Source: Halorhodospira halophila SL1
GTDB lineage: Bacteria; Pseudomonadota; Gammaproteobacteria; Nitrococcales; Halorhodospiraceae
DNA length: 32,000 nt
NCBI RefSeq assembly: GCF_000015585.1
Contig: NC_008789.1
Span: forward strand, 2,610,001 to 2,642,000
Direction: 5' to 3'
The notes below the pieces were generated by a model. It was not told the origin of the DNA. It saw nothing but the letters and a program-made list of their open reading frames with translations, and searched no databases. Every line of letters begins with the position of its first letter. Position 1 is the first letter of the stretch. Of the stretch, positions 1 to 18,658 are shown in pieces. The translations under genes and the position numbers were made by a program.

Positions 1-1
1 C

Positions 2-448
2 GGCCTGGGCGTCGAGGACACCGATGCGCTGAGCGAGGCGGAGGGGGTCGATGACGACGCCGCAGAGTCCGACACCGGGGCCAAAGACGACTCGCCCGCC
101 GATCCGGCTGATACCGCCGGGCAGATCGCCCGCGAGGAACTCGAGTCCCTGGAACAGCAGTTTCGCGAAGATCCCGGCCAGATCACCCGCATGGTGCAGG
201 TACGGCCGGTGATGGGCGACGGCGCCATCCGGGGTTTCCGGCTCAGCGCCATGGATGACCGGGGGGCGGAACTGATGGATCAGCTCGGGCTGCGCAACGA
301 GGACGTGATCACCGAGGTGGAGGGCGTCTCGGTAGCTGATCAGCAGGGGCTGCAGTCCCTGGTCGAGGAGATGCGCGAGGCCTCGCGGGTACGGGTGCGC
401 CTGGAGCGCAACGGCAGCGAGCAAGAGATGACCCTGAGGATCGAGTAA
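2..448 (+). CDS. gspC: Type II secretion system protein GspC, C-terminal part (5' end lies outside the window)
   Basis: Frame 2 is open from the window edge to TAA 446-448. It has a PDZ-like C-terminal segment (GFRLSAM...GLRNEDVITEVEGVSV...VRLERNG). The stop overlaps the gspE ATG (TAATG). Confidence 0.6.
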   Translation, partial: GLGVEDTDALSEAEGVDDDAAESDTGAKDDSPADPADTAGQIAREELESLEQQFREDPGQITRMVQVRPVMGDGAIRGFRLSAMDDRGAELMDQLGLRNEDVITEVEGVSVADQQGLQSLVEEMREASRVRVRLERNGSEQEMTLRIE

Positions 449-1917
449 TGGACGAGATCCCCTTCGCCTTCGCCCGCCGCCACGGCCTGGTACCGCTGGA
501 GATCGGCGACGGCCAGGTCCGCGTCGCCTACCGCACCGGGGTGCAGCCGAGCGCTATCGCCGAACTGCGCCGGCGCCTGGGCCAGCCCCTGGCCCTGGAG
601 CGGGTCGATACCGAGCGCTTCGAGGCACTGCTGCGCGAAGTCTACGAACGCTCCTCCGGCGAGGCGGCACAGGCCATGGAGGGGATCGGCGACGACATGG
701 ACCTGCAGAGCGTGGCCAGCGAACTGGCCGAGCCGCAGGACCTCATGGAGACCGAGGACGACGCCCCGGTCATCCGCCTGATCAACGCCCTGCTCACCGA
801 GGCGATCAAGGAGGACGCCTCGGACATCCACATCGAGACCTTCGAGTCCCGCCTGGTGGTCCGCTTTCGGGTCGACGGCGTGCTGCGCGAGGTCCTCGAG
901 CCGCCGCCGGCCCTGGCGCCGCTGCTGATCTCCCGGGTGAAGGTGATGGCGCGACTGGACATCGCCGAGAAGCGCCTCCCCCAGGACGGGCGCATCTCCC
1001 TGCGCATCGCCGGGCGCCCGGTGGACGTGCGCGTCTCCACCCTGCCCGTCGGTCAGGGCGAGCGAGTGGTGCTGCGCCTGCTCGACAAGCAGGCCGGGCG
1101 GCTCAATCTCACTCATCTGGGCATGGACGAGCGCAACCTGGCCAGCCTCCAGCGGGTCATCCACGCGCCCCACGGCATCCTGCTGGTCACCGGGCCCACC
1201 GGCTCGGGCAAGACCACGACCCTCTACGCCGCTCTGGCCGCCATCAACGACCGCCAGCGCAACATCATGACCGTGGAGGACCCCATCGAGTACTACATCG
1301 ACGGGGTCAACCAGACGCAGATCAACCCGAAGGTGGACATGACCTTCGCCCGCGGCCTGCGCGCCATCCTGCGCCAGGACCCGGACGTGGTGATGGTCGG
1401 CGAGATCCGCGACGTGGAGACCATGGAGATCGCCATCCAGGCCTCGCTGACCGGCCACCTGGTGCTCTCCACTCTGCACACCAACACCTCCATCGGCGCC
1501 GTCACCCGGCTGCGGGATATGGGCATCGAGCCCTTCCTGCTCGCCTCCAGCCTCATCGGCGTCATGGCCCAGCGCCTGGTGCGCCTGCTCTGCCCCGAGT
1601 GCAAAACCCCGTACCAGCCGACGCCCTCCGATCTGGAGCGGCTCGGCATCGACGCCCGGGGGGAACTGCCGACGCTCTACCAGGCCGTGGGCTGCGAGGC
1701 GTGCAACCACCTGGGCTACCGCGGCCGGACCGGGATCTACGACGTGGTGGAGCTCGACCCCACGCTCCGGCAGATGATCCACGACGGCGCCGGTGAGCAG
1801 GATATGGAGCGCTACGCCCGGCGCAGCAACCCCTCCATGGCCGCCGATGGCGCACGGCGCATCCTCAACGGCGAGACCACGGTGGAAGAGGTCTTGCGGG
1901 TGACGCAGGAGGGGTAA
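448..1917 (+). CDS. gspE: Type II secretion ATPase GspE
   Basis: 489 aa. N-terminal GspE-type domain (IPFAFARRHGLV), Walker A GPTGSGKTT, Asp/His boxes, and the tetracysteine motif CPECK...CEACN typical of GspE. Confidence 0.95.
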   Translation: MDEIPFAFARRHGLVPLEIGDGQVRVAYRTGVQPSAIAELRRRLGQPLALERVDTERFEALLREVYERSSGEAAQAMEGIGDDMDLQSVASELAEPQDLMETEDDAPVIRLINALLTEAIKEDASDIHIETFESRLVVRFRVDGVLREVLEPPPALAPLLISRVKVMARLDIAEKRLPQDGRISLRIAGRPVDVRVSTLPVGQGERVVLRLLDKQAGRLNLTHLGMDERNLASLQRVIHAPHGILLVTGPTGSGKTTTLYAALAAINDRQRNIMTVEDPIEYYIDGVNQTQINPKVDMTFARGLRAILRQDPDVVMVGEIRDVETMEIAIQASLTGHLVLSTLHTNTSIGAVTRLRDMGIEPFLLASSLIGVMAQRLVRLLCPECKTPYQPTPSDLERLGIDARGELPTLYQAVGCEACNHLGYRGRTGIYDVVELDPTLRQMIHDGAGEQDMERYARRSNPSMAADGARRILNGETTVEEVLRVTQEG

Positions 1918-1990
1918 CCCGGCACCAAGCCGAACACGGGGCAGAGGCGCCCCTCCGCCCCGCAGCCTTCAGCTTGGCACGAGGCCTTCC

Positions 1991-2311
1991 TCAAGCCGGC
2001 GCGAAGACGTCGCACCAACCGTCCGCGCTGACCAGGACGTCGGCGAAGTCCGGGTGGGAACACTCGCCGTAGCCGCCCTCCACCTCGCCCTCCCAGAACC
2101 TGCAGTCCTGGCACTGCTGTCCGGCCTGGTAGCGGGCGTGGTCCTCGGCATCCGCGGCATCGCCGACGTAGTCGTGGGCGTGGCCGTCGTCGGCCTGCGG
2201 CGCGGCCGTGGCCGTGCGGTGATGCACCAGGGCACTCAGCGGGATGGCGGCGGCCATCAGCGTCGAGGCCTGCAGCAGCCGGCGGCGGTTGTGGTCGATG
2301 GATTCCGTCAT
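1991..2311 (-). CDS. High-potential iron-sulfur protein (HiPIP) with twin-arginine signal peptide
   Basis: ATG at 2311 is preceded by AAGGAG (2321-2326). Tat motif NRRRLLQAS. Mature part has the four-Cys HiPIP pattern (QQCQDCRFW...GECSHPDF...GWCDVFAPA). The longer ORF start at 2413 has no SD and no signal logic. Confidence 0.9.
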
Positions 2312-2374
2312 AACCTCGTCCTCCTTGGCTTTTTCCCACAACTTTTTGAAACCAAGGTCAGCAACCCCCTGTTC

Positions 2375-2410
2375 ACCGCCCCCGGGCAGTCGACCTGCTT
2401 CGGGGGCGGT
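2375..2410 (-). other. Intercistronic GC-rich stem-loop between the large cytochrome gene and the HiPIP gene
   Basis: ACCGCCCCCG (2375-2384) pairs perfectly with CGGGGGCGGT (2401-2410). There is an inner GCAG/CTGC extension and no U-tract on the transcribed strand. Confidence 0.4.
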
Positions 2411-2442
2411 CACTCAAAAGGTATGCCTCGACGTTCACACCA

Positions 2443-5400
2443 CTACTCTTGAGGCACCTCCAGCGGGTACTCACTGTAATTCCTCAAATTGAGATCGGTG
2501 GCTTCGTGGCCTTGAGGCGCCAGCCGCGGGGCGATCCCGCCTCGCTCCCAGATATGCCACCCGAGCACATCTCCGTCGTCCGAAGCCCCTCCCGGTCGCT
2601 CGATCCCGCCATCGTGACAGGAGGTACAGGCAGCCGAGACCGGGCTCATCTTACGGTGCGCACCGATATCGTGGATCTCCGCGTCGCTGATGAAGTAATG
2701 GATTCCATACCAGTCCCCCGTCAGGGCCGTGGAGCCGATCACGCCATCTCCCATGGCTTCGAGCGAAACCGCTGCAGGGAAGTGGCAAGACCAGCAGCTG
2801 TCCTCCCCGGCCGGGAAACTCGTCTTGTTACGGAACTCGTCTCGGACCTGCAGCGGCTCCTGGCGAAAGCCACCGCCAGCCCGGCCCGAGGTATGGACTG
2901 CGTGGATGAGACGTTTGAAATCCGTCGCCTCTTCAAACTTCCCGTCGTGCTCACCAGGCATCTTCAGTTCATCGTAGAGAGCCTTCTGGTCCGCGCCGAA
3001 CGGCGACCCCTCGAATTGCGAGCGGTCCGGCCATGCGGTATCGGTCATATTCGGGGTGTGGCAAGTCACACAGACCTGCGGGTTGTTGGTGCGATTATCC
3101 CCATGGACCGAGAGCTGCATATGGCAGCTACGGCAGCCGAGAACCCCTTGGTTTTGCTGATCGAGGGGCACGTTCTCGTCGTTCACCTCAAACTGCACGA
3201 GTTGAGCACGACCGTCCGTCGCAGCGCGTGCCGGGGTCGACCCGGGCTGGATCTCCCACTCCTGCAGCGGGCTGCCGTCGAAGGCAAAGTCCTCGGCCTG
3301 ACTCGTCAGCCTCAACTCACGGGTATCAAGAATGCCGCCGTTACCGTCTTCAATGTCCCGGGTTATGGTTCCCTCGGCTACGGCAGTTGCAACGGCCCCA
3401 GAATCCGTGAAGTCGAAATCAGCGGCGCTGTAACCGGTGATTTCCTCCCAGCCGAGCTCGACCCTGAACTCACCGCCGCCGAGTTCTTCAACTACGCCAA
3501 CCCCGGTACCAGCAGGCTCACCGCCTTCATCCGTAGCGATACTGACACTGGCGGTCGGGGCGCCAGGCTGGCGATGATCACTAGTGGAGTGAGTGTAGTC
3601 TTTGAACCCTTCGTCCATCCAGGCGAAGAAGACGCTCAGATCCAAATCCTGGTCCCAAAGATTTCCGTTGGCAGCGTCCTCGACGTAGACGACCGCCTCG
3701 AAGCCATCTTCCGTTACCTCCGGAGGACCTCCGTTAAGACCCTCGATCACCACCTCAAAGCGGTCCGCAACCATAGCGTGACGGAGGCCCTGCAGGTGGG
3801 AGCTGAGGAGATGCGGGTCATCATCTACATCGTCACCGTCAAGCGGATCATACGCTCTCAACGGTGCAAGGCTTCCAGCGGGCCCGACGCCCACATGGGT
3901 CTCCAGGTCCTCATTTATCCAGTCGCTAAGGGGCTTCGACGCACCCGCAGCGTGGCACCCGGACGAGCAGGTCTCATGCGGGGCATAAGTCGTATCTTCT
4001 TCACCGTGGCGGTGGCTCTCCAGCCAGTCTGTGCCGACATCCAAGTAGTCTGCGCCCCACAGGGCCTCTACGGGCTCACTACTATCGTTTACGTGCCAGT
4101 ACTGATCATCGTGGCACGAACGACACGCCTGCACGTTGAAGACATCGTGCCAGTTGTCTCCCTGAGCGGTTACTTCGGCGGTATCGAGCCGGTCGGCGAC
4201 GTACCCCTCCTCAAGCCCGAAGTCTTCCTCGGCTAAGTGGTCCAGTAAAGCCGCACTATCCTCGCCCTGATGGCACTTCACACAGTTGGTGATGCCCTTG
4301 TCGAAATCCGTTCTCTCCGCAACGCCCTCGCGTGCGTCGGTATTCCAGATCCCATCCTGGCCGGGCGACGGACCCTGCGGGAACCGAACCGTACTCCAGT
4401 CGCTAGCCGCCGGGGCGGCGGCCAGCAGGTCCACCTCTGCATCTCCGTCCACGCCATAGGCGGGGAGATCAGAGCCACGGTGGATGCGGTGGACGAATTG
4501 CTTGAAGTCCCCGCTGCGCCCGGACGCTGCATAAATGTGGCCCGGGTTGTGGCAAGTGACACACTGCTCAACCTCGGAGCGGTTGCCGCCGTGCTGGGAA
4601 AAACCGTTGTGGCAGCTATTGCAGCTCTCCGTGGTAACGACATTGCGCACCGCCGGGACGTCATCCCGGTCCGTGGTCTGATGCATCATATCGACCGGAT
4701 CGTAGGCGCCCGGATCGATAATCGCCGCGTTCTCGACCTTCCCCTCGATCCACGCATAGTTCGCCACCGGCTCTGGGACGAAGTCGTAGGTCTCGTTATA
4801 GGCCGTGACCCCGCTCACCTCCAGCCCGAGTCGGTGGGTATGACGGGCATCGAACTCCACGACGAACTGATCATCCTCTGTGACAAATACGCCCTGGGGC
4901 AGCGCCGTGCCATCGGGCCACCAACAGATCACTTCCTGTGTATGGATGCCGTCTTCGGTGTTGGTCTCGTCGGTGCAGTTGATGTGCTGACCCAGGCCTC
5001 CATGATCCGAGATCTCCGTAAAGGCACCGCGCTCAATAGTGAGGGTCTCGTCTACGCCAGACGCAGTAATACTGACCTGTTCGTTCTCGCGCCATTCCCA
5101 GTTCGTGAGCTCCTGGTCCTCGAGATCGACTCGGAGCGTCTCGCCGTCCACCATCTCGACCCCCGCGGTGACCGGCTCCGGCGCCGGGTAAAGCACGGCC
5201 GTATCGGCGTCACCGGCCCGGAAAGGCACGGAGTCCGCCCTGTGCGGGATGTTGAAGTAGTTCTGCCAGTCGTGGCCGATTTCGTTTTCATCGATTTCAC
5301 CGGCCGGATCGTCGTCTTCTGAAGCGCGCAACCGCGGGGAAAGCCGCGCGAACGTCACGGTGAAGTCCCCGGCTTGTCTGTCCGACAGATCCTGGGACAG

Positions 5401-5778
5401 GCTGATGGTCAACTCCGGCCCATCGTTGTCTTCGAATTCGACACGCTCGATCAGATTCTCATCCTCACCGCCGGGTATCTGATCGCGGGTTGACCCCTGA
5501 GCCAAATCGTGGACCTCGTTGATCGGCTGTGGATCCTCACCGGGCTCGTGGCAGTCGGCGCACTCCTCACTTCGCGGATCCAGATCCTCGATGTCCGCCC
5601 ATTCACCCTCATGGAAACTCGTGGCCGCGGCGGTTCCACCATCACCGCCTTCCTCCACGATCTCCGTGGTCTCGTCGCGGTCACAGGCGGAGAGGGCCAG
5701 GACCGCTGCGATGGCGCAGCTGGTGACCAGGCCCCGACGCCCATACCGTGATCGTTGTGTTGCGATGGTCTCGGTCAT
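2443..5778 (-). CDS. Large multihaem c-type cytochrome lipoprotein, OmcA/MtrC-like (9 CXXCH plus 1 CX3CH)
   Basis: ATG 5778 with AGGAGGGGG SD (5783-5791). Signal peptide ends in the lipobox LSAC. Haem motifs: CADCH, CNSCH, CVTCH, CVKCH, CRSCH, CSSGCH, CRSCH, CVTCH, CWSCH, CTSCH. The module CxSCH-x5-HG(G/D)NR-x5/6-CVTCH(N/T)P is duplicated (4540-4623 and 3049-3135). Confidence 0.85.
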   Translation of the reverse strand: MTETIATQRSRYGRRGLVTSCAIAAVLALSACDRDETTEIVEEGGDGGTAAATSFHEGEWADIEDLDPRSEECADCHEPGEDPQPINEVHDLAQGSTRDQIPGGEDENLIERVEFEDNDGPELTISLSQDLSDRQAGDFTVTFARLSPRLRASEDDDPAGEIDENEIGHDWQNYFNIPHRADSVPFRAGDADTAVLYPAPEPVTAGVEMVDGETLRVDLEDQELTNWEWRENEQVSITASGVDETLTIERGAFTEISDHGGLGQHINCTDETNTEDGIHTQEVICWWPDGTALPQGVFVTEDDQFVVEFDARHTHRLGLEVSGVTAYNETYDFVPEPVANYAWIEGKVENAAIIDPGAYDPVDMMHQTTDRDDVPAVRNVVTTESCNSCHNGFSQHGGNRSEVEQCVTCHNPGHIYAASGRSGDFKQFVHRIHRGSDLPAYGVDGDAEVDLLAAAPAASDWSTVRFPQGPSPGQDGIWNTDAREGVAERTDFDKGITNCVKCHQGEDSAALLDHLAEEDFGLEEGYVADRLDTAEVTAQGDNWHDVFNVQACRSCHDDQYWHVNDSSEPVEALWGADYLDVGTDWLESHRHGEEDTTYAPHETCSSGCHAAGASKPLSDWINEDLETHVGVGPAGSLAPLRAYDPLDGDDVDDDPHLLSSHLQGLRHAMVADRFEVVIEGLNGGPPEVTEDGFEAVVYVEDAANGNLWDQDLDLSVFFAWMDEGFKDYTHSTSDHRQPGAPTASVSIATDEGGEPAGTGVGVVEELGGGEFRVELGWEEITGYSAADFDFTDSGAVATAVAEGTITRDIEDGNGGILDTRELRLTSQAEDFAFDGSPLQEWEIQPGSTPARAATDGRAQLVQFEVNDENVPLDQQNQGVLGCRSCHMQLSVHGDNRTNNPQVCVTCHTPNMTDTAWPDRSQFEGSPFGADQKALYDELKMPGEHDGKFEEATDFKRLIHAVHTSGRAGGGFRQEPLQVRDEFRNKTSFPAGEDSCWSCHFPAAVSLEAMGDGVIGSTALTGDWYGIHYFISDAEIHDIGAHRKMSPVSAACTSCHDGGIERPGGASDDGDVLGWHIWERGGIAPRLAPQGHEATDLNLRNYSEYPLEVPQE

Positions 5779-5820
5779 CGTTCCCCCTCCTGGCGGAGTC
5801 GTTCTTATCCGGTCCAACAC

Positions 5821-7866
5821 TCAGAACTTGAAGCCCACCGATCCGACGACCAGGTGAGCGGTGTAGTCGTAGGCCTCCCGCCCCATGAGCACGAATTCGC
5901 CGTCGTCGTCGGGGTCGGGGTCGGGGCCAAAGCCTTTCATCCAGTCCTGCTCTTCAAAGCGCTGACCGACGTAGGCGAGGCGCACCCATCCGGAGTCGGT
6001 GATCTGGTGCTCGCCGTAGAGCTGGAGCTGGGTGAGACGGGTCTCGAGGGTCGGGTAGCGCTGGTCGCCGTCGGGGTCGGCGACGAGGATGTCGCTGTCC
6101 GAGGTGGCGTAGAGCAGCTCGGTACCGAGCGTCCAGCGCTGATCGTTGTCGAGGCTCGTCTCGCCGCCGACCCCGAGGGTGAGGATCTCCTCCTCCTGGG
6201 TCAGGCTGCGGTCGTCACCGCCCTGGGCGCGATCCCGCTCCTCGTAGGTGAGGAAGGCGTAACCGCTGGTGGTCTCTACCGGGAAGTAGTCGGCGGAGAG
6301 GGTGACGGCGCTGCGGTCATCGCCCTCAAGGCCGGCATCCGAGTGCACATAGTCATCCTCGAGGTAAGTGAACTCGGCACCTAGAGCAAGCTCGGGGATA
6401 AGGTGGTAGGTAGCGCTCGCACCGATATCCAGCCGCGTCAAATCGGCCATGTGGTAAAGATCGAGCTCCGGAATATTATCGGCCAGAGCCGAGCCACCCC
6501 CGGCATAGCTCGCCCCCCACCGGTCCATATACGCACCGCGCACGGTTATGCTCAGATTGTCGGTGGGCTGACTGCGCAGACGGCCGCGGTAGGTGTCTTC
6601 GATGGTTTCGTCGTCGGCGTAGGTACGATCTTTCTCCTCGTACTGGTAACCGACCATCAGATTACTGCGCATCGGCAGCCGGAAGTCCGCATCGAACCCC
6701 GCCCTGTGGCGGGTCCAGTCGTGAACGCGCGTGGAGCGGTTCATGGTCGGCAGGTCGTCCCACTGAGCCGACTGGTTGTCCCGGTCCTCGTACTCGTACT
6801 CCGCCTTCACCCGTACGCGGGGGTGGAAGCGATGTGTACCCTGGAGACCTAGACGGGTCGTATCGATCCGGCCATCGAGGTTGTTGCCGAGGACATCCAG
6901 GACGTCCTCGTAGGCCGAATCGTCGATGAAGGACTCATCCTGCTCCGCGCGCCCGTAGACCAGGCTGCCGCTGACCGACGTGCCCGGTTGCAGGGCGTAC
7001 GCCATGGAGCCACTGAACTGATGGTAGCGGTTCTCCGGGGGCCGGGACAGGCGGTGCCGATCACCCTCCTCTAGATTGGTCCAGTCATCCGCTCGGGGGT
7101 CGTCGACGTCGAAAGAGTCTCCGCTGAGCTGCGTGAACTCGGAGAGGTGATAGCCAACCCGCGCCTGGAGGGCATCACCGGCGTACTCCGCACCGAGGTC
7201 GAGCTGGTCGGTGCGCTGATCCACCGGGGCGGGCATCTGGAACCCCCGCGGCGCCGCATCGCTCCATATGCCATAGCCGCGGTACTGGTGCCCCTCCTTC
7301 TCCTCGCGGCTGAAACCAACATCGAGTTTCCAGTTGTCGCCGAGGACGCGATGGGCCCCCACCGCTGTGCGTTCACGCTGGGTGCCCACTTCCCAGTCAC
7401 GGCTGTCGGTCTCGACGTCGCCGGTCACTTGAGGCAACCGCAGATCACCCCCCTCATCCCGCAACGGGCTGACCACATCGTGATCGTAAGATCGCGGCAG
7501 CTCGTCGTACTGCAGATGCAGCCCGTAGGACCCCTGTACCCCGTAGCGGCCACGCAGGCGCCGCGAATCCAGCCCCAGATCGCGCCCCTCAAGGCGGCCA
7601 TACCGTCCTTCCTGTTCGTCCTCGCCGCGATAGCGCAGATCAAGCTCCAGGGCCGGGTAGAGCCCGTCCTCGACGGGCCCCGTGTAGCGGCGGAAGTGGC
7701 TGTTGTCCTGATCTAGATAGCCGAAGCCGAGCCAGATCTCCGACTCCGTCGGACCCACAAAGGTCGCGGAGGACTCGGGCGTGCCGGCATCGGCGCCGGC
7801 CACGATGAATAATGCCGTCGCCGATAGCGCCAGTGAGCTTCCCAATTTGGTGGTGGTTCGAGTCAT
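5821..7866 (-). CDS. Outer-membrane beta-barrel protein, MtrB/PioB family (cytochrome-associated porin)
   Basis: 681 aa. Sec signal peptide (ALFIVAGADA). Alternating Y/G/D-rich beta-strand pattern throughout. C-terminal VGFKF with terminal Phe. Lies between two multihaem cytochrome genes with 31- and 42-nt gaps. Confidence 0.8.
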   Translation of the reverse strand: MTRTTTKLGSSLALSATALFIVAGADAGTPESSATFVGPTESEIWLGFGYLDQDNSHFRRYTGPVEDGLYPALELDLRYRGEDEQEGRYGRLEGRDLGLDSRRLRGRYGVQGSYGLHLQYDELPRSYDHDVVSPLRDEGGDLRLPQVTGDVETDSRDWEVGTQRERTAVGAHRVLGDNWKLDVGFSREEKEGHQYRGYGIWSDAAPRGFQMPAPVDQRTDQLDLGAEYAGDALQARVGYHLSEFTQLSGDSFDVDDPRADDWTNLEEGDRHRLSRPPENRYHQFSGSMAYALQPGTSVSGSLVYGRAEQDESFIDDSAYEDVLDVLGNNLDGRIDTTRLGLQGTHRFHPRVRVKAEYEYEDRDNQSAQWDDLPTMNRSTRVHDWTRHRAGFDADFRLPMRSNLMVGYQYEEKDRTYADDETIEDTYRGRLRSQPTDNLSITVRGAYMDRWGASYAGGGSALADNIPELDLYHMADLTRLDIGASATYHLIPELALGAEFTYLEDDYVHSDAGLEGDDRSAVTLSADYFPVETTSGYAFLTYEERDRAQGGDDRSLTQEEEILTLGVGGETSLDNDQRWTLGTELLYATSDSDILVADPDGDQRYPTLETRLTQLQLYGEHQITDSGWVRLAYVGQRFEEQDWMKGFGPDPDPDDDGEFVLMGREAYDYTAHLVVGSVGFKF

Positions 7867-7897
7867 GGTTCTCGCGCCCTCGCCGTGATTGCAGAGC

Positions 7898-8845
7898 TCA
7901 GCGCTTGAAGAAGGCGCCGCCCGGGTGATTGGAGCCGTGAACCTCGGAGTGGCAGTTGGTACAGCCCTGCCCCCGTGTCATGAACTGCCCCTGCGACAGG
8001 CCTTCGTGATCCGGCCCAAGCAAATCACCGGGATGACCTGTGGTGACGTGACAGGACTGGCAAAGCTGGGCCGTGCGCGCCTCCAGCATGTTCGGGTGGA
8101 TCGAGCCGTGCGGGTTGTGGCAATGGGTGCAGTCTTCGGCCACCGGCTGGTGCTCCCAGAGGAACGGTCCCCGATACTCCGCGTGGCAGTTATGGCAGGT
8201 CTCATTCACCCCCCCGCCGCGGAGCATCGCGTGGCCAGTGGTGCCGTGGGGGTTGTGGCAGTCCGTGCACTCCACCTGGCCTTCCCGGACCGGATGGTGG
8301 TGCGGCCGGTTGAAGTCCACCCGACGCTCCTGGTGGCAACTGCTGCACAGCGTCAGCTGATCCTCCTCGCGGAGCAGGGTGTCGTTGTTGCTGTGCATGT
8401 TGTGGCAGTCGACGCAGGCCATGTCCTGGAACTCGTGAGCGCCACCATCCCAGTGCATGCGGTCCCCGCCGCTGTGGCAGTCCAGGCACGTCTCGTTGGC
8501 CTGGCTGGTGCTCACGTCTTCGCCGATCTCGAAGAAGTGCTCCCAGCCGTCGCCGTGACACTGGTAGCAGTAGTTGCCATCCTCTCGCGTCTGGCCCGCT
8601 GGTGTGCGTGGATCGGACCCCACGGCGTGGGGCGTCTCCTCCATGCGGCCGATGTGGGCGCGCAGATCCTCGGCACGGCGCTCGGCCACAACCGGTGAGA
8701 GACCACGCACCTCCTCGACGAGCTCCTCGAGCTGTTCGGGATCAAGGTCCTCACCCCCAGCCACCGGGGCGATCACCAGCAATGCGAAACAGGCCGCAGC
8801 GCACCCAAACGGCATCAGACGCCGGATCAGTCTTTGCGCGAACAA
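7898..8845 (-). CDS. Periplasmic multihaem c-type cytochrome, MtrA/DmsE/PioA/MtoA family (nine CXXCH motifs)
   Basis: Nine CXXCH motifs. The C-terminus CTNCHSEVHGSNHPGGAFFKR is the family hallmark. Preferred start is TTG 8845, 6 nt after AGGGAGGAG (8852-8860), which gives a normal signal peptide (FAQRLIRRLMPFGCAAACFALLVIAPVAG). An alternative is ATG 8815. The track start at 8911 overlaps the predicted promoter. Confidence 0.85.
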   Translation of the reverse strand: MFAQRLIRRLMPFGCAAACFALLVIAPVAGGEDLDPEQLEELVEEVRGLSPVVAERRAEDLRAHIGRMEETPHAVGSDPRTPAGQTREDGNYCYQCHGDGWEHFFEIGEDVSTSQANETCLDCHSGGDRMHWDGGAHEFQDMACVDCHNMHSNNDTLLREEDQLTLCSSCHQERRVDFNRPHHHPVREGQVECTDCHNPHGTTGHAMLRGGGVNETCHNCHAEYRGPFLWEHQPVAEDCTHCHNPHGSIHPNMLEARTAQLCQSCHVTTGHPGDLLGPDHEGLSQGQFMTRGQGCTNCHSEVHGSNHPGGAFFKR

Positions 8846-8895
8846 GGCGCGCTCCTCCCTATCGATGGAGTTTTGATTGTTATCAACGCCGGGAG

Positions 8896-8910
8896 GCAAA
8901 AGGCGGGCCA
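8896..8910 (-). promoter_or_regulatory. Candidate sigma-54 (-24/-12) promoter of the cytochrome-porin operon
   Basis: The minus strand reads TGGCCC-GCCTT-TTGC, with GG and GC exactly 12 nt apart as in the TGGCAC-N5-TTGC consensus. It lies about 50 nt upstream of the TTG start at 8845. Confidence 0.55.
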
Positions 8911-8989
8911 AAATGGGCCGACCGGCGTAACGGCCCCGTCATACGGGGGTTTCGATACGATTCCCGGGGACAAGACAGAGCCCTGTCGG

Positions 8990-9038
8990 GACCGCCGCGC
9001 GGTCAGGCGCTGCGCAGCGTGGTCTCAGGCTGCGCAGC
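8990..9038. promoter_or_regulatory. Array of palindromes, candidate enhancer (UAS) sites for the adjacent sigma-54 activator
   Basis: The 10-bp perfect palindrome GCTGCGCAGC occurs twice (9009-9018 and 9029-9038), exactly 20 bp apart, inside an imperfect 20-bp tandem repeat (9001-9020 / 9021-9040). It is preceded by GACCGC-CGC-GCGGTC (8990-9004). The array lies 80-130 bp upstream of the -24 element. Confidence 0.45.
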
Positions 9039-9130
9039 CGGAGATCGGTTGGGACGGCCGGCCCCTTGTGCCACCACGGCTGGGTTGATTAATGTCAACC
9101 CATTAGGGAACCGGTCGCTGGGAGGGATTC

Positions 9131-10495
9131 ATGCGCGGATGCGTCCTGGTCGTGGATGACCATCGCGAGGTGGTCTACGCCGTCCGGCGGCTGCTGCAGA
9201 GCCGCGGGCTGGAGGTGATCAGCGCCCCCTCCGCCGCCGAGGCGGAGCCGCTGGTGCCCCGGGCAGACGCGCTGATCCTGGATATCCAGCTGGAGCAGGA
9301 CAACGGCCTGGCGCTGCTTCAACGCCTGCGCAGCGCCGGGGATGAGACACCGGCGGTGGTCCTGTCGGCGCACACCTTCCCCGACAACGTGGTCGAGGCG
9401 AGCAAGCGCGGCGCGATGCAGATCCTGGCCAAGCCCATCGAGGCCGAGGCCCTGGTCGGGGCCGTGGAAGAGGCGTTGAGCCAGACGCACTCCGACGCCT
9501 CGGCGTCCGCCCTGAGCGCCGAGGCCCACGATGTGCTCGGCACCTCGGCGGCGATGATGGAGGTCTTCAAGGCCCTGGGCGTGGCCGCGGCCAACGACCT
9601 CAACGTCCTACTCACCGGCGAAACCGGGGTCGGCAAAGAGGTTTCGGCGGAGCTCGTCCACCGCCACTCCCACCGGGCCGACGGCCCCTTCGTGGCCATC
9701 AACTGCACCGCCATGCCCGAGAGCCTCCTCGAGGCCGAACTGTTCGGCCACGCCAGCGGCGCCTTCACCGGCGCCAGCCGGGCCGCCGAGGGCAAGGTGG
9801 AGGCCGCCGCCGGCGGCACCCTGTTCCTGGACGAGATCGGCGACATGCCGCTGGCCTTTCAGGCCAAGCTGCTGCGCTTCCTGGAGGACAAGCGCTTCTA
9901 CCGCCTGGGGGAGTCGGCGCCGCGTCACGCCGATGTGCGCGTGATCGCCGCCACCAACCGCCAGCTGCTCGGCGCGGACGCCAGTCAGTTCCGCAGCGAT
10001 CTCTACTACCGCCTGGCGCAGATCCCGGTGCACATCCCGCCGCTGCGCGACCGGTTGGAAGACGTGCCGGCGCTGATCGAGGTCTTCATCCGGGCGGCCA
10101 ACCAGGAGATGGGGCTGGATATCCACGGTATCACCCCCGAGGTCCGCCAACAGGCCCAGGGCCACAGCTGGCCGGGCAACGTCCGCGAGCTCAAGAACGC
10201 CGTCTACCGCGCCGCAGCGAAGCGCCAGCGGGGGCTGATCGATACCCTGGAGCTGGCCGGCGCGGCCGCCGAACCCGCCGGTGACAGCGACTTCGACACC
10301 GCCCTGGACCGCGCTCTGGACCGTGCCCTGGCCCAGGACCGGCTGCCGGAGCTGCTCAACGACCTGGAGCGCCGGGCCGTCCAGCGCGCCCTGACCCACT
10401 ACAACGGCAACAAGAGCCGGGTGGCCGAGGCCTTGAACGTCTCCCGCAACACCCTGCGCGCCCGGCTGCAGGCCATGCAGGAGCCGACGGATTGA
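9131..10495 (+). CDS. Sigma-54-dependent response regulator (NtrC family bacterial enhancer-binding protein)
   Basis: Receiver domain (VVDDH, LILDIQ, AKP). AAA+ domain with Walker A GETGVGKE, the GAFTGA loop and ELFGH. C-terminal Fis-type HTH ([16 protein letters not shown]). SD GGAGGG at 9121-9126. Confidence 0.9.
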
Positions 10496-10515
10496 GGTGC
10501 TGGCTGCCACGCAAC

Positions 10516-11970
10516 ATGGCCGTCCGGCTCGGCGCCACCTTCCTGCTGGTGACCCTGATGGTCGCCCTGCCGCTGACGCTGTGGTTCGACCACTACGCGA
10601 GGGGCATGATCGAGGCCGGCGTCGAGCGCGCCGTCGAGGGGGCCGACGCGCGGGTCATCCTCGACGCCGCGGTGGTCTCGGAGGCTTTCGATCGCGTGCG
10701 CGGCCTGGCGCTGCTGGTGGTGGGGCTCAGCGCCCTGCTGGCCGCCGGCGTCGGGGCGCTGATCGCGGCGCGCTGGCGGACGCGGATGCGCAGTATCGTC
10801 GAGCAGGGCCACCGCCGTGCCCGGCGCGCCCAGGGCGACGGCAAGCAGCCCGCGCGCTGCCCCGGCACACCCCGGCCACGCCCCGGCGAGGACGAACTGG
10901 ACGCCGTCGAGCGGCAACTGCTCAACACCGTCGACCAGCTGGGCCGCTCGCAGTGGCTGCTCGACAGCGTCGAGGACCTGGTGATGCTGGTCGACGCCGA
11001 TGGCACCATCCGCCACGGTAACGCCGCCATCGGCACACACTGCGCGAGTTGTCCGGTTCCCGACTGCATGGGGGCCACGGTGCCGGATCTCCTCGGCGGC
11101 GGACTGTGGCTGCGCATCCGCACCGGGATCGAGCGCGCCGAGACCGGGACCTTCGAGCAGGAGGTGCGGCTGGACGGGCGGTCCTGGCCGGCCCTGGTCT
11201 CCTACCGCCGTCTCGGGGAGCTGACCCTGGTCAAGATCACCGACCTGAGCGAGTACCGCCGGCTGAACGAACATCTGGAGAAGCTCCAGGCCCTCTCCAC
11301 CCTGGGCGAGATGTCCACCGAGCTGGCCCACGACATCAAGAACAGCATCGTGCCGGTGCGCCTGCTCTGCGAGGTGGCCCCGCTGGAGGCCGAAGACCGG
11401 CAGGCGATCTTCCGCTCGCTGGATCACATCCACGAGCTGGTCAATGACTTTATGGCCTTCGGCTGCGGGCGCAGCAGCGAACCGCGCAGCGGCGCTCTCA
11501 CCGAGATCCTGCAGAGCTGGACCACGGTCCTGCGCAACGAGGCCCAGGCCAAGGGCGTCTCCCTGACGGCGGCGTTCGCCGACGCGCGGGTCGAACTGCC
11601 GGGGGGCTTTCGGATCGTCTACGCCAACCTGGTGCGCAACGCGGTCCAGGCCGTACCCGCCGGCGGCCAGGTGTGGGTGGACGCCCGAGTGGATCGCCGC
11701 GACACCCTGGTGCTGCAGGTGGCGGACAACGGCCCGGGCATCCCCGAGGCGCTACGCGAGCGGCTGTTCGAGCCCTTTGCCACCAGTCGCGCCGACGGCA
11801 CTGGGCTGGGACTGCCACTGGTCCAGCGCTATGTGCAGGAGGCCGGCGGTGAGGTGGTCTGCGACTCCACCCCCGGCACCGGGACCAGTTTCACGGTCCA
11901 CTGGCCGGGGGCCGGGGAAACCACAGGCCGTACACTCACCCACCACGCCGGGATCGCCTCTGCGGGCTGA
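10516..11970 (+). CDS. Sensor histidine kinase (two TM segments, PAS-like domain, HisKA, HATPase_c)
   Basis: H-box ELAHDIKNS, N-box NLVRNAVQA, G1 DNGPGIP, F-box FEPFAT, G2 GTGLGL. Start is ATG 10516. An alternative is TTG 10492, overlapping the regulator stop. Confidence 0.85.
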   Translation: MAVRLGATFLLVTLMVALPLTLWFDHYARGMIEAGVERAVEGADARVILDAAVVSEAFDRVRGLALLVVGLSALLAAGVGALIAARWRTRMRSIVEQGHRRARRAQGDGKQPARCPGTPRPRPGEDELDAVERQLLNTVDQLGRSQWLLDSVEDLVMLVDADGTIRHGNAAIGTHCASCPVPDCMGATVPDLLGGGLWLRIRTGIERAETGTFEQEVRLDGRSWPALVSYRRLGELTLVKITDLSEYRRLNEHLEKLQALSTLGEMSTELAHDIKNSIVPVRLLCEVAPLEAEDRQAIFRSLDHIHELVNDFMAFGCGRSSEPRSGALTEILQSWTTVLRNEAQAKGVSLTAAFADARVELPGGFRIVYANLVRNAVQAVPAGGQVWVDARVDRRDTLVLQVADNGPGIPEALRERLFEPFATSRADGTGLGLPLVQRYVQEAGGEVVCDSTPGTGTSFTVHWPGAGETTGRTLTHHAGIASAG

Positions 11971-12040
11971 CGCCTTGGATCCTTCCGTATCAGGCGGCTA
12001 GGCGCTGGATGGGTCCAAACCGCTCGTGACGACACTGCCG

Positions 12041-12070
12041 TTGACACGCCACGCAGGTTTGGAGTATACT
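12041..12070 (+). promoter_or_regulatory. Near-consensus sigma-70 promoter upstream of the NYN gene
   Basis: TTGACA (12041-12046), 18-nt spacer, TATACT (12065-12070). Confidence 0.5.
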
Positions 12071-12125
12071 TTTTCCACGACTCACCCCGTGACCGCTTGG
12101 TTCGACCAAGTGCTCTCGGGGCGAC

Positions 12126-12155
12126 AAGCCGCCTCCGGGCGGCTTTGTCATTTCT
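12126..12155 (+). terminator. Terminator-like hairpin in the leader of the NYN gene (or 3' end of a short RNA, or of the kinase operon)
   Basis: AAGCCGCC (12126-12133), loop TCCG, GGCGGCTT (12138-12145), followed by TGTCATTTCT. A second hairpin CTTGGT-TCG-ACCAAG lies at 12096-12110. Confidence 0.35.
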
Positions 12156-12166
12156 GGAGATGGGTT

Positions 12167-12823: not shown

Positions 12824-12981
12824 GTGGTTTGGCCCTGATAGGCTCGGGTCCATCCCGAGCCACCCGCCACTCTGGCACCACCCGATCGCCATGGACACCA
12901 GCCCATGAAGACGCCCGGAACCCGCCCTGCTGACGCCCTGATCCGGAACGCTGGATGGCGCGGTACTGCCGAGGTCCGCCG

Positions 12982-16162: not shown

Positions 16163-16193
16163 GGGGTCACCGTACCATCGCCACTCGGCCCCG

Positions 16194-17054: not shown

Positions 17055-17271
17055 GGTCACTCAAGCTTACACCGAGCGTCATGAAGCCGTCTCGATCCGG
17101 TCGCAGGGCGGCGTCGCCGTGCAGCGACAATCTCGAGCACTGCAGATCAGCAACTTAGCGCGCGCTCCCTGCCGTAGTGTTGCCTGACGGCGACAAAACG
17201 GGGCGCCCCGGCCTGCCTCCGCTCCGGGCCGCCGATCCTATCTTCTTGTTTTCCCGGTTTTTTACAGATGT

Positions 17272-18562: not shown

Positions 18563-18591
18563 TTGACGCTTGCGGATGCTGCTGATATAAG
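18563..18591 (+). promoter_or_regulatory. Candidate sigma-70 promoter of the cytochrome c4 gene
   Basis: TTGACG (18563-18568), 17-nt spacer, TATAAG (18586-18591). Confidence 0.5.
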
Positions 18592-18658
18592 TGGCAGCGT
18601 TCTGCGTCCGAGTTACGCACAAGGAAAGCCCACTCCATTAGCGGAGCGAACACAAGTC

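What the first reader, a model, noticed from the sequence alone, without database searches (positions are those of the whole stretch)
2443..5778. Oversized two-module multihaem lipoprotein with an extra N-terminal haem and a CX3CH site
At 1111 aa the protein is roughly 400 aa longer than Shewanella MtrC/OmcA, which I recall as about 670-735 aa. It carries nine canonical CXXCH motifs plus one CSSGCH (CX3CH) at 3952-3969. The segment CNSCHNGFSQHGGNRSEVEQCVTCHNPG (4540-4623) recurs as CRSCHMQLSVHGDNRTNNPQVCVTCHTPN (3049-3135). This shows two duplicated haem modules, as in MtrC domains II and IV. The haems are distributed 1 + 5 + 4. A solitary CADCH lies at 5548-5562. About 310 haem-free, very acidic residues follow before module 1, and about 270 haem-free residues separate the two modules. 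Domain 1 also holds an isolated Cys pair (INC...EVIC). I do not recognise this layout from any described surface cytochrome.
Basis: seen in the sequence. Interest (0 to 1): 0.7.

Follow-up and report, generated by a model that had tools for sequence, protein, structure and literature searches.

The report
Circularly permuted MtrC-type decahaem cytochrome
This gene encodes the cell-surface ten-haem cytochrome of an MtrAB-type electron conduit in the purple sulfur bacterium Halorhodospira halophila. Its "extra" N-terminal haem is the family's usual last haem-binding segment moved to the front of the chain, so the protein is an enlarged, rearranged member of a known family, not a new kind of cytochrome.

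Summary
The minus-strand ORF 5778..2443 encodes 1111 aa with a lipobox, nine CXXCH motifs and one CSSGCH, laid out 1+5+4, plus a conserved Cys pair.

The window is Halorhodospira halophila. The gene is the third in the operon mtrA-mtrB-mtrC-HiPIP, which lies between type II secretion genes.

The protein belongs to the OmcA/MtrC decahaem family. The N-terminal haem is not an extra one. Six sequence tests show it is homologous to the C-terminal haem-10 segment of canonical MtrC, and domain IV lacks exactly that segment. When the segment is moved back, every conserved Cys and His of the family is present.

The CX3CH site is canonical haem 5, the haem that faces MtrA in the solved complex. Its spacing varies from CX2 to CX5 within this clade.

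The 1+5+4 layout is shared by 36 of 37 long homologues. It also occurs in 21 normal-length family members placed elsewhere in the tree, so the segment switched termini more than once. I found no paper describing this.

AlphaFold2 could not place the N-terminal segment, so its position in 3D is inferred. The co-operonic HiPIP suggests inward electron flow to photosynthesis; this is also inferred, and others have proposed it before.

Verdict: a new variant of a known kind, of moderate interest.

The parts
2443..5778 (-). mtrC-type gene: 1111-aa decahaem lipoprotein cytochrome (N-type, permuted)
   Evidence: ORF and motifs. It is 100% identical to an H. halophila protein that NCBI names 'multiheme c-type cytochrome'. 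Pfam PF22113 matches twice. TIGR03507 gives 195 bits against a cut-off of 209.3. Foldseek finds only UndA, OmcA and MtrC as significant hits.
5683..5778 (-). Signal peptide with lipobox LSAC (aa 1-32; Cys32 is the predicted lipidation site)
   Evidence: Read directly from the translation. C32 is conserved in the alignments.
5494..5616 (-). N-terminal haem segment (aa 55-95: FHEGEWADIEDLDPRSEECADCHEPGEDPQPINEVHDLAQG), homologous to the canonical C-terminal haem-10 segment. It supplies C73, C76, H77 and H90.
   Evidence: hhalign's best hit is the haem-10 region. An HMM of this segment hits the tenth motif in its top 7 targets. BLASTP gives E 1e-5 and 7e-6 to the C-termini of P0048 and P0124. A reciprocal HMM hits aa 47-95 with E 3.6e-5. 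Re-appending the segment raises family-model scores. The conserved columns are filled.
4774..5466 (-). Domain I, an enlarged beta-barrel (aa 105-335) containing the invariant Cys pair C268/C285
   Evidence: AF2 gives beta strands with pLDDT mostly 75-93, and the strands at 267-270 and 283-286 carry the two cysteines. C268 and C285 are invariant. The domain aligns colinearly with domain III.
3889..4653 (-). Domain II, the pentahaem module (aa 376-630): haems 1-4 with CXXCH and haem 5 with CX3CH
   Evidence: Pfam PF22113 covers aa 378-614. The motifs are listed. The conserved distal His residues H396, H430, H433 and H589 are present.
3952..3969 (-). CSSGCH (CX3CH) at the position of canonical haem 5, the haem that faces MtrA haem A10 in the solved complex
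   Evidence: It aligns to the fifth motif column of 72 canonical proteins. Spacing varies CX2/CX3/CX4/CX5 within the clade. The role of haem C5 is taken from PMC7198977.
3274..3810 (-). Linker helix (aa 657-673) and domain III beta-barrel (aa 674-835)
   Evidence: AF2 gives helices at 657-661 and 663-673, then strands with pLDDT 70-94. H661 is invariant.
2524..3156 (-). Domain IV (aa 875-1085) with only four haem motifs (haems 6-9). The canonical fifth motif is missing here.
   Evidence: Motifs are at 882, 903, 995 and 1051. Family HMMs stop matching at profile position 690/757 or 626/672 unless the N-terminal segment is appended. The distal His residues H892, H959, H962 and H1075 are conserved.
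5821..7866 (-). mtrB/pioB-type outer-membrane porin (681 aa)
   Evidence: PF11854 matches with E 5e-180, and TIGR03509 gives 344 bits, above its cut-off.
7898..8911 (-). mtrA-type periplasmic multihaem cytochrome. It has nine CXXCH motifs, and its real start is probably TTG at 8845.
   Evidence: TIGR03508 gives 233 bits, above its cut-off. Eight relatives have the same nine motifs.
8896..8910 (-). Sigma-54-type -24/-12 promoter-like site, TGGCCCGCCTTTTGC, upstream of mtrA
   Evidence: It has one mismatch to TGGCAC-N5-TTGC, although across the whole window such matches are not enriched over chance. Similar sites lie upstream of mtrA in L003, L011, L012 and L014. It is a weak pattern match, supported mainly by the conserved neighbouring activator gene.
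1991..2311 (-). HiPIP with a twin-arginine signal peptide, immediately downstream of mtrC; the likely periplasmic partner
   Evidence: PF01355 matches with E 1e-20. It is about 65% identical to H. halophila HiPIP I, 2HIP. No terminator-like or sigma-70-like site was found between it and mtrC. The adjacency was already noted in PMC8877833.
9131..11970 (+). Sigma-54-dependent response regulator (9131-10495) and PAS histidine kinase (10492-11970), transcribed divergently from mtrA
   Evidence: Pfam and NCBIfam matches. Homologues are adjacent to mtrC in most related loci.
448..1917 (+). Type II secretion ATPase GspE, flanking the cluster. GspN/M/L/K lie on the other side at 13579-17060 (-).
   Evidence: TIGR02533 gives 708 bits. 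T2SS N, M, L and K are identified.

Best explanation
The gene encodes the extracellular, lipid-anchored decahaem cytochrome (MtrC type) of an MtrAB porin-cytochrome conduit in Halorhodospira halophila.

Layout along the chain:
- lipobox
- an acidic tether of about 22 residues
- a 40-residue haem-binding segment
- beta-barrel domain I
- domain II with five haems
- a helix, then beta-barrel domain III
- domain IV with four haems

The N-terminal segment is the family's haem-10 segment, a CXXCH followed about 12 residues later by a conserved His. In canonical MtrC, OmcA, MtrF and UndA this segment ends the protein. Here it has been moved to the start, which is a circular permutation.

The two halves of the protein are pseudo-repeats, so I infer that the segment packs onto the far end of domain IV and restores the usual staggered cross of ten bis-His haems. 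The relation of the haem-10 segment to barrel I mirrors that of the haem-5 segment to barrel III, so the chain break can sit on either side of the segment.

The CX3CH motif binds haem 5, the haem that faces the last haem of MtrA at the mouth of the porin.

Likely operation (inferred):
1. The protein is exported by Sec, its haems are attached in the periplasm, and it is lipidated.
2. The flanking type II secretion system moves it to the cell surface.
3. It exchanges electrons with external solids or chelates, and haem 5 passes them to or from the nine-haem MtrA inside MtrB.
4. In this phototroph the electrons then go to the co-operonic HiPIP and on to the photosynthetic reaction centre. That would be extracellular electron uptake, as in PioABC.
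For: Family and context:
- Pfam PF22113 matches twice and TIGR03507 gives 195 bits.
- The PDB sequence hits are MtrF, OmcA and MtrC.
- The AF2 model from a 120-sequence alignment has pTM 0.78. Its only significant Foldseek hits are UndA, OmcA and MtrC, over about 1000 columns with TMt 0.48-0.58.
- The gene sits in the order mtrA-mtrB-mtrC-HiPIP. This order is conserved in relatives.

Permutation:
- A profile of the N-terminal segment hits the haem-10 region of a 72-sequence canonical alignment best (P 5.5e-5). The next-best hit is haem 5, its pseudo-symmetric twin.
- An HMM of the segment hits the tenth motif in its top 7 targets (E 6.5e-8 to 3.6e-5) and in 12 of 15 hits with E<0.01.
- BLASTP of the single sequence gives E 1e-5 and 7e-6 to the C-termini of P0048 and P0124. 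All other motifs score at least 1000-fold worse.
- A reciprocal HMM built from 167 C-terminal segments picks the N-terminal motif in 39 of 40 N-type proteins. For this protein it matches aa 47-95 with E 3.6e-5.
- Appending the segment to the C-terminus raises my canonical HMM score from 287.4 to 299.4. Thirty shuffled controls gave 287.7 +/- 2.7.
- The same change raises TIGR03507 from 194.5 to 203.3, against 194.9 for a shuffled control. Profile coverage extends from position 626 to 665 of 672.
- In the permuted alignment, all ten motifs and all conserved distal His residues of the family are occupied.
- The halves aa 50-598 and 599-1090 align colinearly (hhalign probability 99.7%, E 1e-24). 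The N-terminal haem pairs with haem 5, H90 with H661, barrel I with barrel III, and haems 1-4 with haems 6-9.
- The closest C-type relatives (Ectothiorhodospira, H. abdelmalekii) keep the segment at the C-terminus.

Haem 5 role: in the solved complex, MtrC haem C5 lies 8 A from MtrA haem A10 (PMC7198977).

Direction of electron flow:
- The HiPIP has a Tat signal and lies directly downstream with no terminator-like site between.
- PMC8877833 draws the same inference.
Against: - AF2 does not place the N-terminal segment. Its pLDDT is 32-46 in both models, even when the haem domains reach 60-92. Docking at the haem-10 site is therefore inferred from homology and pseudo-symmetry, not observed.
- The protein stays below the curated NCBIfam cut-off even after the segment is moved back (203.3 against 209.3).
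- The pseudo-twofold argument rests on my recollection of the MtrF/MtrC structure papers plus the internal repeat alignment. I did not measure coordinates.
- Haem occupancy of the CX3CH site and the N-terminal site is untested.
- Nothing here shows expression, surface localisation or the direction of electron flow.
- Long-family members in Alcanivoracaceae MAGs have no HiPIP next to the cluster, so the direction may differ between hosts.
- My trees are neighbour-joining on very divergent sequences.
Confidence: 0.7

Rival explanations
1. The N-terminal haem is a truly additional, independent mono-haem module. It could be a tethered or swinging haem near the lipid anchor, or a new entry port. 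On this reading domain IV has become a genuine tetrahaem module, so the haem wire has a different geometry from MtrC.
For: AF2 leaves residues 24-104 unplaced (pLDDT <50) in both models. The segment carries its own CXXCH and two conserved His residues (H56, H90), so it could ligate a haem without domain IV. It follows a flexible acidic tether.
Against: The segment is specifically homologous to the haem-10 segment, not to a generic haem motif. Domain IV lacks exactly that segment and nothing else. N-type proteins end where the segment would begin in C-type proteins. The low AF2 confidence is expected here, because the model has no haems and only about 45 sequences cover the segment.
Confidence: 0.15
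2. The architecture is as in the best explanation, but the conduit runs outwards. On this reading it serves dissimilatory reduction of Fe(III), Mn(IV) or other external acceptors, as in Shewanella, and not electron uptake for photosynthesis.
For: The family is best known for metal reduction (PMC7198977; PMC8805035). Related long-type clusters occur in non-phototrophic Alcanivoracaceae and Oceanospirillaceae MAGs without a HiPIP, and one of them lies next to an ABC transporter with a periplasmic solute-binding protein. Published modelling cited in PMC7198977 suggests MtrC supports electron transfer in both directions.
Against: In H. halophila a Tat-exported HiPIP sits in the operon. It is a paralogue of the organism's own HiPIP I. 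HiPIPs have high potentials, which fits an acceptor role downstream of MtrA, and this is the PioABC arrangement. From general knowledge, H. halophila is an obligate anaerobic phototroph with no reported metal respiration.
Confidence: 0.3
3. One or both unusual sites, the N-terminal CADCH and the CSSGCH, carry no haem, so the protein is a nona- or octahaem cytochrome.
For: No experimental data exist. CX3CH is a minority motif. The spacing at this site drifts from CX2 to CX5 in relatives, which could be read as relaxed constraint.
Against: Both Cys residues and the His of each site are invariant or nearly so across 37 to 120 homologues, despite 30% overall identity. The matching distal His residues are conserved too. 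The inserted residues are all Gly, Ser or Ala, which fits a bulged loop. CX3CH and CX4CH are accepted haem-binding motifs (PMC9250108). Loss of haem 5 would cut the wire to MtrA.
Confidence: 0.07

Closest known systems
Shewanella MtrC / MtrF / OmcA / UndA (OmcA/MtrC family decahaem outer-membrane cytochromes; PDB 4LM8, 6QYC, 6R2Q, 3PMQ, 4LMH, 3UCP)
   Same: - Lipoprotein with four domains: barrel I, pentahaem II, barrel III, haem domain IV.
- Ten haem motifs and ten conserved distal His residues.
- Encoded next to mtrA and mtrB, with type II secretion genes nearby.
- These are the best and only significant fold matches.
   Different: - The haem-10 segment is at the N-terminus instead of the C-terminus.
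- Haem 5 uses CX3CH.
- The mature protein is about 350 aa longer, with the extra residues spread over all domains.
- The conserved Cys pair lies in domain I. From memory, the redox-active disulfide of Shewanella MtrC is in domain III.
- Gene order is A-B-C rather than C-A-B.
- The score is 14 bits below the TIGR03507 cut-off.
C-type MtrC of Ectothiorhodospira spp. and Halorhodospira abdelmalekii (P0048, P0122, P0124/L003; 'Group 7' of Baker et al. 2022, PMC8805035)
   Same: - Sister clade with 100% NJ bootstrap support.
- Enlarged proteins of 880-1010 aa.
- A-B-C gene order, a nine-haem MtrA, and an adjacent sigma-54 regulator.
- The domain I Cys pair is present in most members.
- Variable spacing at haem 5 (CX2, CX3, CX4).
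   Different: These proteins keep the haem-10 segment at the C-terminus and have no N-terminal haem.
Short N-type OmcA/MtrC proteins from metagenomes (e.g. P0131 Geopsychrobacteraceae, P0213 Anaeromyxobacter; 700-900 aa)
   Same: They have the same 1+5+4 order: lipobox, linker, E-x-C-x-x-C-H-G-P-G...V-H, then domain I. The chain ends about 28 aa after haem 9.
   Different: They are of normal length and lack the upstream FH-GEW-I--LDP motif. They do not group with the long clade; all N-types together are monophyletic in 0 of 200 bootstrap replicates. The rearrangement therefore seems to have arisen, or reverted, independently.
PioABC of Rhodopseudomonas palustris TIE-1 (photoferrotrophy / extracellular electron uptake; PMC6831781, PMC10304953)
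   Same: It is an operon encoding an MtrA-type cytochrome, an MtrB-type porin and a Tat-exported HiPIP in an anoxygenic phototroph. The implied path is outside, then porin-cytochrome, then HiPIP, then reaction centre.
   Different: Pio has no extracellular MtrC-type cytochrome, whereas here one is inserted between the porin gene and the HiPIP gene. Function in H. halophila is untested.

Membership tests
OmcA/MtrC family decahaem outer-membrane cytochromes | Ten covalent haem-binding motifs | tested here: met
   Nine CXXCH plus one CX3CH. All ten align to the ten family motif columns once the N-terminal segment is placed last.
OmcA/MtrC family decahaem outer-membrane cytochromes | Two MtrC/MtrF-type pentahaem domains (Pfam PF22113) | tested here: met
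   142.5 bits, E 1.3e-41, two stretches; the gathering score is 30.
OmcA/MtrC family decahaem outer-membrane cytochromes | Score at or above the curated NCBIfam TIGR03507 cut-off (209.3 bits) | tested here: not met
   The native protein scores 195.0 and the re-permuted protein 203.3. The shortfall reflects divergence and insertions. NCBI names the protein only 'multiheme c-type cytochrome'. This is an annotation threshold, not a structural feature of the family.
OmcA/MtrC family decahaem outer-membrane cytochromes | Bis-His ligation: ten conserved distal histidines | tested here: met
   H396, H430, H433, H589, H628 (or H661), H892, H959, H962, H1075 and H90 occupy the conserved His columns of 72 canonical sequences. 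The ligation itself is not testable here.
OmcA/MtrC family decahaem outer-membrane cytochromes | Four-domain fold: split beta-barrels I and III alternating with haem domains II and IV | tested here: met
   The AF2 model has pTM 0.78, with beta-rich regions at 110-335 and 674-835. Foldseek matches UndA, OmcA and MtrC with E 1e-14 to 8e-11 and TMt 0.48-0.58. The model has no haems and moderate confidence.
OmcA/MtrC family decahaem outer-membrane cytochromes | Canonical motif order, 5+5, with haem 10 at the extreme C-terminus | tested here: not met
   The order here is 1+5+4. Of 224 family members I examined, 168 are C-type and 56 are N-type. The order is therefore typical of the family but not universal.
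OmcA/MtrC family decahaem outer-membrane cytochromes | N-terminal lipoprotein signal | tested here: met
   The lipobox is LSAC with Cys32. It is conserved in homologues.
OmcA/MtrC family decahaem outer-membrane cytochromes | Encoded beside an MtrA-type cytochrome and an MtrB-type porin | tested here: met
   TIGR03508 and TIGR03509 both score above their cut-offs for the two upstream genes. The arrangement is conserved in relatives.
OmcA/MtrC family decahaem outer-membrane cytochromes | Surface exposure, and electron exchange with MtrA through haem 5 | not testable with these tools
   This needs protease accessibility, a structure of the complex, or electrochemistry.
PioABC-type phototrophic electron-uptake conduit | Operon of an MtrA-type cytochrome, an MtrB-type porin and a Tat-exported HiPIP in an anoxygenic phototroph | tested here: met
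   The organism is identified.
PioABC-type phototrophic electron-uptake conduit | Light-dependent oxidation of Fe(II), minerals or a cathode that requires the operon | not testable with these tools
   I found no experimental report for Halorhodospira.

The most novel reading that the evidence does not exclude
The relocated haem does not return to the canonical haem-10 pocket. Held on its acidic tether next to the lipid anchor, it would form a new membrane-proximal or mobile port on a wire otherwise one haem shorter. Together with the nine-haem MtrA and the operon's HiPIP, this would make a distinct inward-directed conduit. Such a conduit could let an extremely halophilic purple sulfur bacterium draw photosynthetic electrons from external solids, such as iron minerals or its own extracellular sulfur.
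Probability: 0.12. Interest if true: 0.75.

Novelty: new variant of a known kind. Interest (0 to 1): 0.48.

Why it matters
MtrC-type cytochromes are the standard model for how bacteria wire themselves to minerals and electrodes. All solved structures come from Shewanella and share one motif order.

Three points follow from this analysis:
- The terminal, solvent-exposed haem-10 segment is a self-contained peptide that evolution has moved between the two ends of the chain more than once. I found no earlier report of a natural circular permutation in a multihaem cytochrome. It suggests a simple design rule for engineering or splitting these wires.
- The spacing at the MtrA-facing haem 5 varies from CX2CH to CX5CH. 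This marks the inter-protein contact as an evolvable spot. It also points to a CX5CH motif that is absent from the motif lists I found.
- For the organism, the operon with its HiPIP gives a directly testable route for extracellular electron uptake in a halophilic purple sulfur bacterium.

Tried and rejected
- **AF2 with the 37-sequence long-family alignment.** Mean pLDDT was 47 and only the two barrels were confident, so the model was unusable for the haem domains.
- **AF2 with 120 sequences.** The overall fold was good (pTM 0.78), but residues 24-104 and 1060-1111 stayed below pLDDT 50. It neither supports nor refutes docking of the N-terminal haem. The tool returns no coordinates, so distances could not be measured.
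- **My first idea that the permutation is unique to the long clade.** This was rejected. Twenty-one normal-length N-type proteins turned up among the representative hits.
- **Search for an 11-haem intermediate carrying both an N-terminal and a canonical C-terminal haem-10 segment.** None was found among 224 proteins. P0173 and the P0064/P0150/P0161 group have an unrelated Cys-rich C-terminal extension instead.
- **Moving the segment back to lift the protein over the TIGR03507 cut-off.** The score rose by 8.8 bits but stayed below the cut-off.
- **Literature.** I found no paper on MtrC permutation and no occurrence of 'CX5CH'. Baker et al. 2022 do not mention Halorhodospira in the main text.
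- **Sigma-54 site.** It is a single 1-mismatch pattern match. Such matches are not enriched across the window as a whole (23 found, 32 expected), so I treat it only as a lead.
- **Acidity as a special feature of the haem-free stretch.** This was rejected, because neighbouring proteins are similarly acidic and lysine-poor.

Full report
**1. The observation**

The minus-strand ORF 5778..2443 starts at ATG and gives 1111 aa. Its N-terminus is a lipoprotein signal ending in LSAC, with Cys32 as the predicted lipidation site.

It carries nine CXXCH motifs, at aa 73, 386, 406, 499, 552, 882, 903, 995 and 1051, and one CSSGCH at aa 604.

The haem-free stretches are 308 and 272 aa. Residues 81-385 are 22.6% Asp+Glu and 0.3% Lys. 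The Cys pair is C268/C285.

The acidity is not special to this protein. MtrB, GspM, the HiPIP and others in the window are similarly acidic and lysine-poor. This fits the organism.

**2. Organism and context**

The protein is 100% identical to a Halorhodospira halophila entry on a 2.68-Mb contig.

On the same strand, directly upstream, lie two genes:
- An MtrA-type multihaem cytochrome at 8911..7898. TIGR03508 scores above its cut-off.
- An MtrB/PioB porin at 7866..5821. PF11854 matches with E 5e-180.

Directly downstream is a HiPIP with a twin-arginine signal, at 2311..1991. It is about 65% identical to the classical H. halophila HiPIP I. No terminator-like site separates it from mtrC.

A sigma-54 response regulator and a PAS histidine kinase are transcribed divergently from mtrA. 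A sigma-54-like -24/-12 site lies upstream of mtrA, and similar sites occur in relatives.

The whole block sits between type II secretion genes: gspE on one side and gspN/M/L/K on the other. The GC3 of mtrC, mtrB and mtrA is 0.72-0.81, against 0.85-0.95 for the neighbours. This is compatible with the horizontal spread of mtr clusters described by Baker et al. 2022 (PMC8805035).

Imhoff, Kyndt and Meyer 2022 (PMC8877833) already noted an 'MtrABF' cluster with an adjacent HiPIP in Hrs. halophila and suggested Fe(II) oxidation. The locus is therefore known at the gene-name level. I found no description of the haem layout.

**3. Family**

- Pfam PF22113 (MtrC/MtrF domains II/IV) matches twice.
- TIGR03507 (OmcA/MtrC family) gives 195 bits, just under its cut-off of 209.3.
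- The only PDB sequence hits are MtrF, OmcA and MtrC.
- An AF2 model from a 120-sequence alignment has pTM 0.78. It shows two confident beta-rich domains (110-335 and 674-835) and two moderately confident helical haem domains.
- Its only significant Foldseek matches are UndA, OmcA and MtrC, over about 1000 columns, with TM normalised to the target of 0.48-0.58.

**4. The 'extra' N-terminal haem is haem 10 moved to the front**

Thirty-six of the 37 long homologues (1000-1200 aa) share the 1+5+4 layout. The exception is P0048 from Ectothiorhodospira. It has no N-terminal haem and has a fifth motif at the extreme C-terminus, and the two segments look alike.

I tested this resemblance in several independent ways:

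- **(a) Profile against profile.** A profile of the N-terminal segment, compared with a 72-sequence canonical alignment, hits the C-terminal haem-10 region best (P 5.5e-5). The second-best hit is haem 5, its pseudo-symmetric twin.
- **(b) Segment HMM against other family members.** Searched against 78 proteins outside the long family, about 780 haem sites, the top seven hits all fall on the tenth motif (E 6.5e-8 to 3.6e-5). Of the 15 hits with E<0.01, twelve are haem 10 and three are haem 5.
- **(c) Single-sequence BLASTP.** The 55-residue segment matches the C-termini of P0048 and P0124 at E 1e-5 and 7e-6. Every other motif scores at least a thousand-fold worse.
- **(d) Reciprocal HMM.** A model built from the C-terminal segments of 167 C-type proteins picks the N-terminal motif as best hit in 39 of 40 N-type proteins. 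In this protein it matches aa 47-95 with E 3.6e-5.
- **(e) Moving the segment back.** Cutting out the segment and appending it after residue 1086 raises my canonical HMM score from 287.4 to 299.4 bits. Thirty shuffled-flank controls gave 287.7 +/- 2.7, maximum 293.4. The curated TIGR03507 score rises from 194.5 to 203.3, against 194.9 for a control. Profile coverage extends from position 626 to 665 of 672.
- **(f) Conserved columns.** In an alignment of the re-permuted protein with 72 canonical and 6 sister sequences, the identical residue fills every Cys or His column conserved in at least 80% of canonical members. These are the ten motifs and the distal histidines. C73, C76, H77 and H90 supply the last motif and the terminal His.

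The haem count is therefore the family's usual ten. Domain IV lacks only the piece that now sits at the N-terminus.

**5. Why the move is easy**

The halves aa 50-598 and 599-1090 align colinearly (hhalign probability 99.7%, E 1e-24). The pairings are:
- the N-terminal haem with haem 5
- H90 with H661
- the start of barrel I with the start of barrel III
- haems 1-4 with haems 6-9

The protein thus reads as two full copies of a unit made of a haem segment, a barrel and four haems.

In the solved MtrC, a helix links the haem-5 end of domain II to barrel III (PMC7198977). From memory of the MtrF and MtrC structure papers, the two halves are related by a pseudo-twofold axis. If that holds, the end of the haem-10 segment lies as close to the start of barrel I as the haem-5 segment does to barrel III. 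The chain break could then sit on either side of the segment. This step is inference. AF2 left the segment unplaced (pLDDT 32-46), and I had no coordinates.

**6. Distribution**

I first took the permutation to be unique to the long clade, and that was wrong. Among 224 family members with 10-11 motifs:
- 35 are long N-type;
- 21 are normal-length N-type (700-900 aa), for example from Geopsychrobacteraceae and Anaeromyxobacter MAGs;
- 168 are C-type.

I built a neighbour-joining tree from an alignment that excludes the haem-10 segment (524 columns, 87 sequences, 200 bootstraps):
- The long N-type clade is monophyletic in 100% of replicates.
- It groups with the C-type Ectothiorhodospira/H. abdelmalekii clade in 100% of replicates.
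- All N-types together are never monophyletic.

The segment has therefore changed ends at least twice, or reverted. Within Halorhodospira in the broad sense, H. halophila and H. halochloris have the N-type and H. abdelmalekii has the C-type.

In GTDB species representatives, the long N-type occurs in a Thioalkalivibrio MAG and in Alcanivoracaceae and Oceanospirillaceae MAGs. Where the contig allows a check, the gene order is mtrA-mtrB-mtrC.

**7. The CX3CH site**

It aligns with canonical haem 5. In the S. baltica complex, haem C5 lies 8 A from MtrA haem A10, and the sequence around it is highly conserved within the Shewanella MtrC clade (PMC7198977).

In the clade studied here the spacing is not conserved:
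- CX2CH in three long members and in some sister sequences
- CX3CH in Halorhodospira
- CX4CH in two sister sequences
- CX5CH (CGSSGGCH) in 31 of 37 long members

The inserted residues are all Gly, Ser or Ala, and both Cys residues and the His are invariant. This fits a bulged loop that still binds haem. CX3CH and CX4CH are accepted motifs (PMC9250108). A full-text search found no mention of CX5CH.

**8. Size**

The extra length relative to the canonical median of 734 mature residues is spread as follows:
- about +40 aa for the tether before the first motif
- about +100 aa for domain I, counting the relocated segment
- about +80 aa for domain II
- about +90 aa for domain III
- about +30 aa for domain IV

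The C-type sister clade is already enlarged, with a median of 948 aa. The protein's large size is therefore a trait of the clade and not the result of an added domain.

**9. Function (inferred)**

By analogy with Shewanella, the protein is a surface-exposed lipoprotein delivered by the flanking type II secretion system, and it docks on MtrAB through haem 5.

In this phototroph, the operon's Tat-exported HiPIP is the likely periplasmic partner. HiPIPs have high potentials, and the PioABC operon of R. palustris has the same cytochrome-porin-HiPIP logic. I therefore favour inward electron flow, meaning extracellular electron uptake for photosynthesis, with roughly even confidence. The donor is unknown. 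Outward metal reduction remains a live alternative, especially for the non-phototrophic hosts, which lack the HiPIP.

**10. Verdict**

It is a divergent, enlarged, circularly permuted member of the OmcA/MtrC family in an mtrAB-mtrC-HiPIP operon.

The gene and cluster are annotated and have been mentioned in the literature. As far as I could find, the following have not been described:
- the permutation
- its recurrence across the family
- the variable CXnCH spacing at the MtrA-facing haem
- the nine-haem MtrA partner

Noticed in passing
window 7898-8911 (-); also L002, L003, L005, L006, L007, L011, L012, L014: The MtrA-type partner has nine CXXCH motifs, not ten. One N-terminal haem of Shewanella MtrA has no counterpart, and an acidic, apparently helical N-terminal extension precedes the first motif. 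The same nine-motif spacing occurs in all eight relatives checked.
   Followed up: partly
P0004-P0035 (long-family homologues); position equivalent to window 3952-3969: In 31 of 37 long homologues, the haem-5 site reads CGSSGGCH or a close variant, which is CX5CH. Two sister sequences have CX4CH. CX5CH is absent from the motif list in PMC9250108, and a full-text search for it returned no papers.
   Followed up: partly
window 8896-8910 (-) and 9131-11970 (+): A sigma-54-type -24/-12 site (TGGCCCGCCTTTTGC) lies upstream of mtrA and overlaps the TTG that the ORF list uses as the start. The real start is probably the TTG at 8845, which follows GGGAGGAG. A sigma-54 activator and a histidine kinase are adjacent here and in most Ectothiorhodospira and Halorhodospira loci, which carry similar sites.
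   Followed up: partly
window 191-1917 (+) and 13579-17060 (-); L002 188-3128 (-): The mtr block, with its regulators, is wedged between type II secretion genes: a PDZ fragment and gspE on one side, gspN/M/L/K on the other. An Alcanivoracaceae long-type cluster also lies next to T2SS-type E and F genes.
   Followed up: partly
window 2443-8911: The GC3 of mtrC (0.72), mtrB (0.80) and mtrA (0.81) is lower than that of the surrounding genes (0.85-0.95). The HiPIP gene has the local value (0.91). This suggests the three mtr genes were acquired horizontally and a resident HiPIP paralogue was recruited.
   Followed up: no
P0064, P0150, P0161 (also P0173, P0191): Some short N-type MtrC proteins carry a C-terminal extension ending in '...CGPGP.SSQPAGHTTRTDCCSCH..' or a related Cys-rich tail. 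This odd CCxCH-type motif is unrelated to the haem-10 segment.
   Followed up: no
L003 (Halorhodospira abdelmalekii) 3974-6706: This close relative has the C-type arrangement (904 aa, haem 10 at the C-terminus, CATACH at haem 5), whereas H. halochloris (P0003) and H. halophila have the N-type. Related phototrophs thus carry different versions of the gene.
   Followed up: partly
L001 (Thioalkalivibrio MAG) 1-13446: Here the long N-type mtrC directly follows the sigma-54 regulator and kinase genes. No mtrA or mtrB was detected in the 8 kb downstream or the 2.3 kb upstream held for this contig.
   Followed up: no
window 18563-19303 (+): A dihaem cytochrome c4-like gene (two cytochrome c domains) lies about 1.5 kb beyond the T2SS genes. 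It is another possible periplasmic carrier.
   Followed up: no
window 28329-28715 (-); L002 11469-11930 (+): A SirB-family membrane protein gene lies immediately downstream of mtrC in the Alcanivoracaceae locus, and one is also present in this window, but 23 kb away. This is probably coincidence.
   Followed up: no
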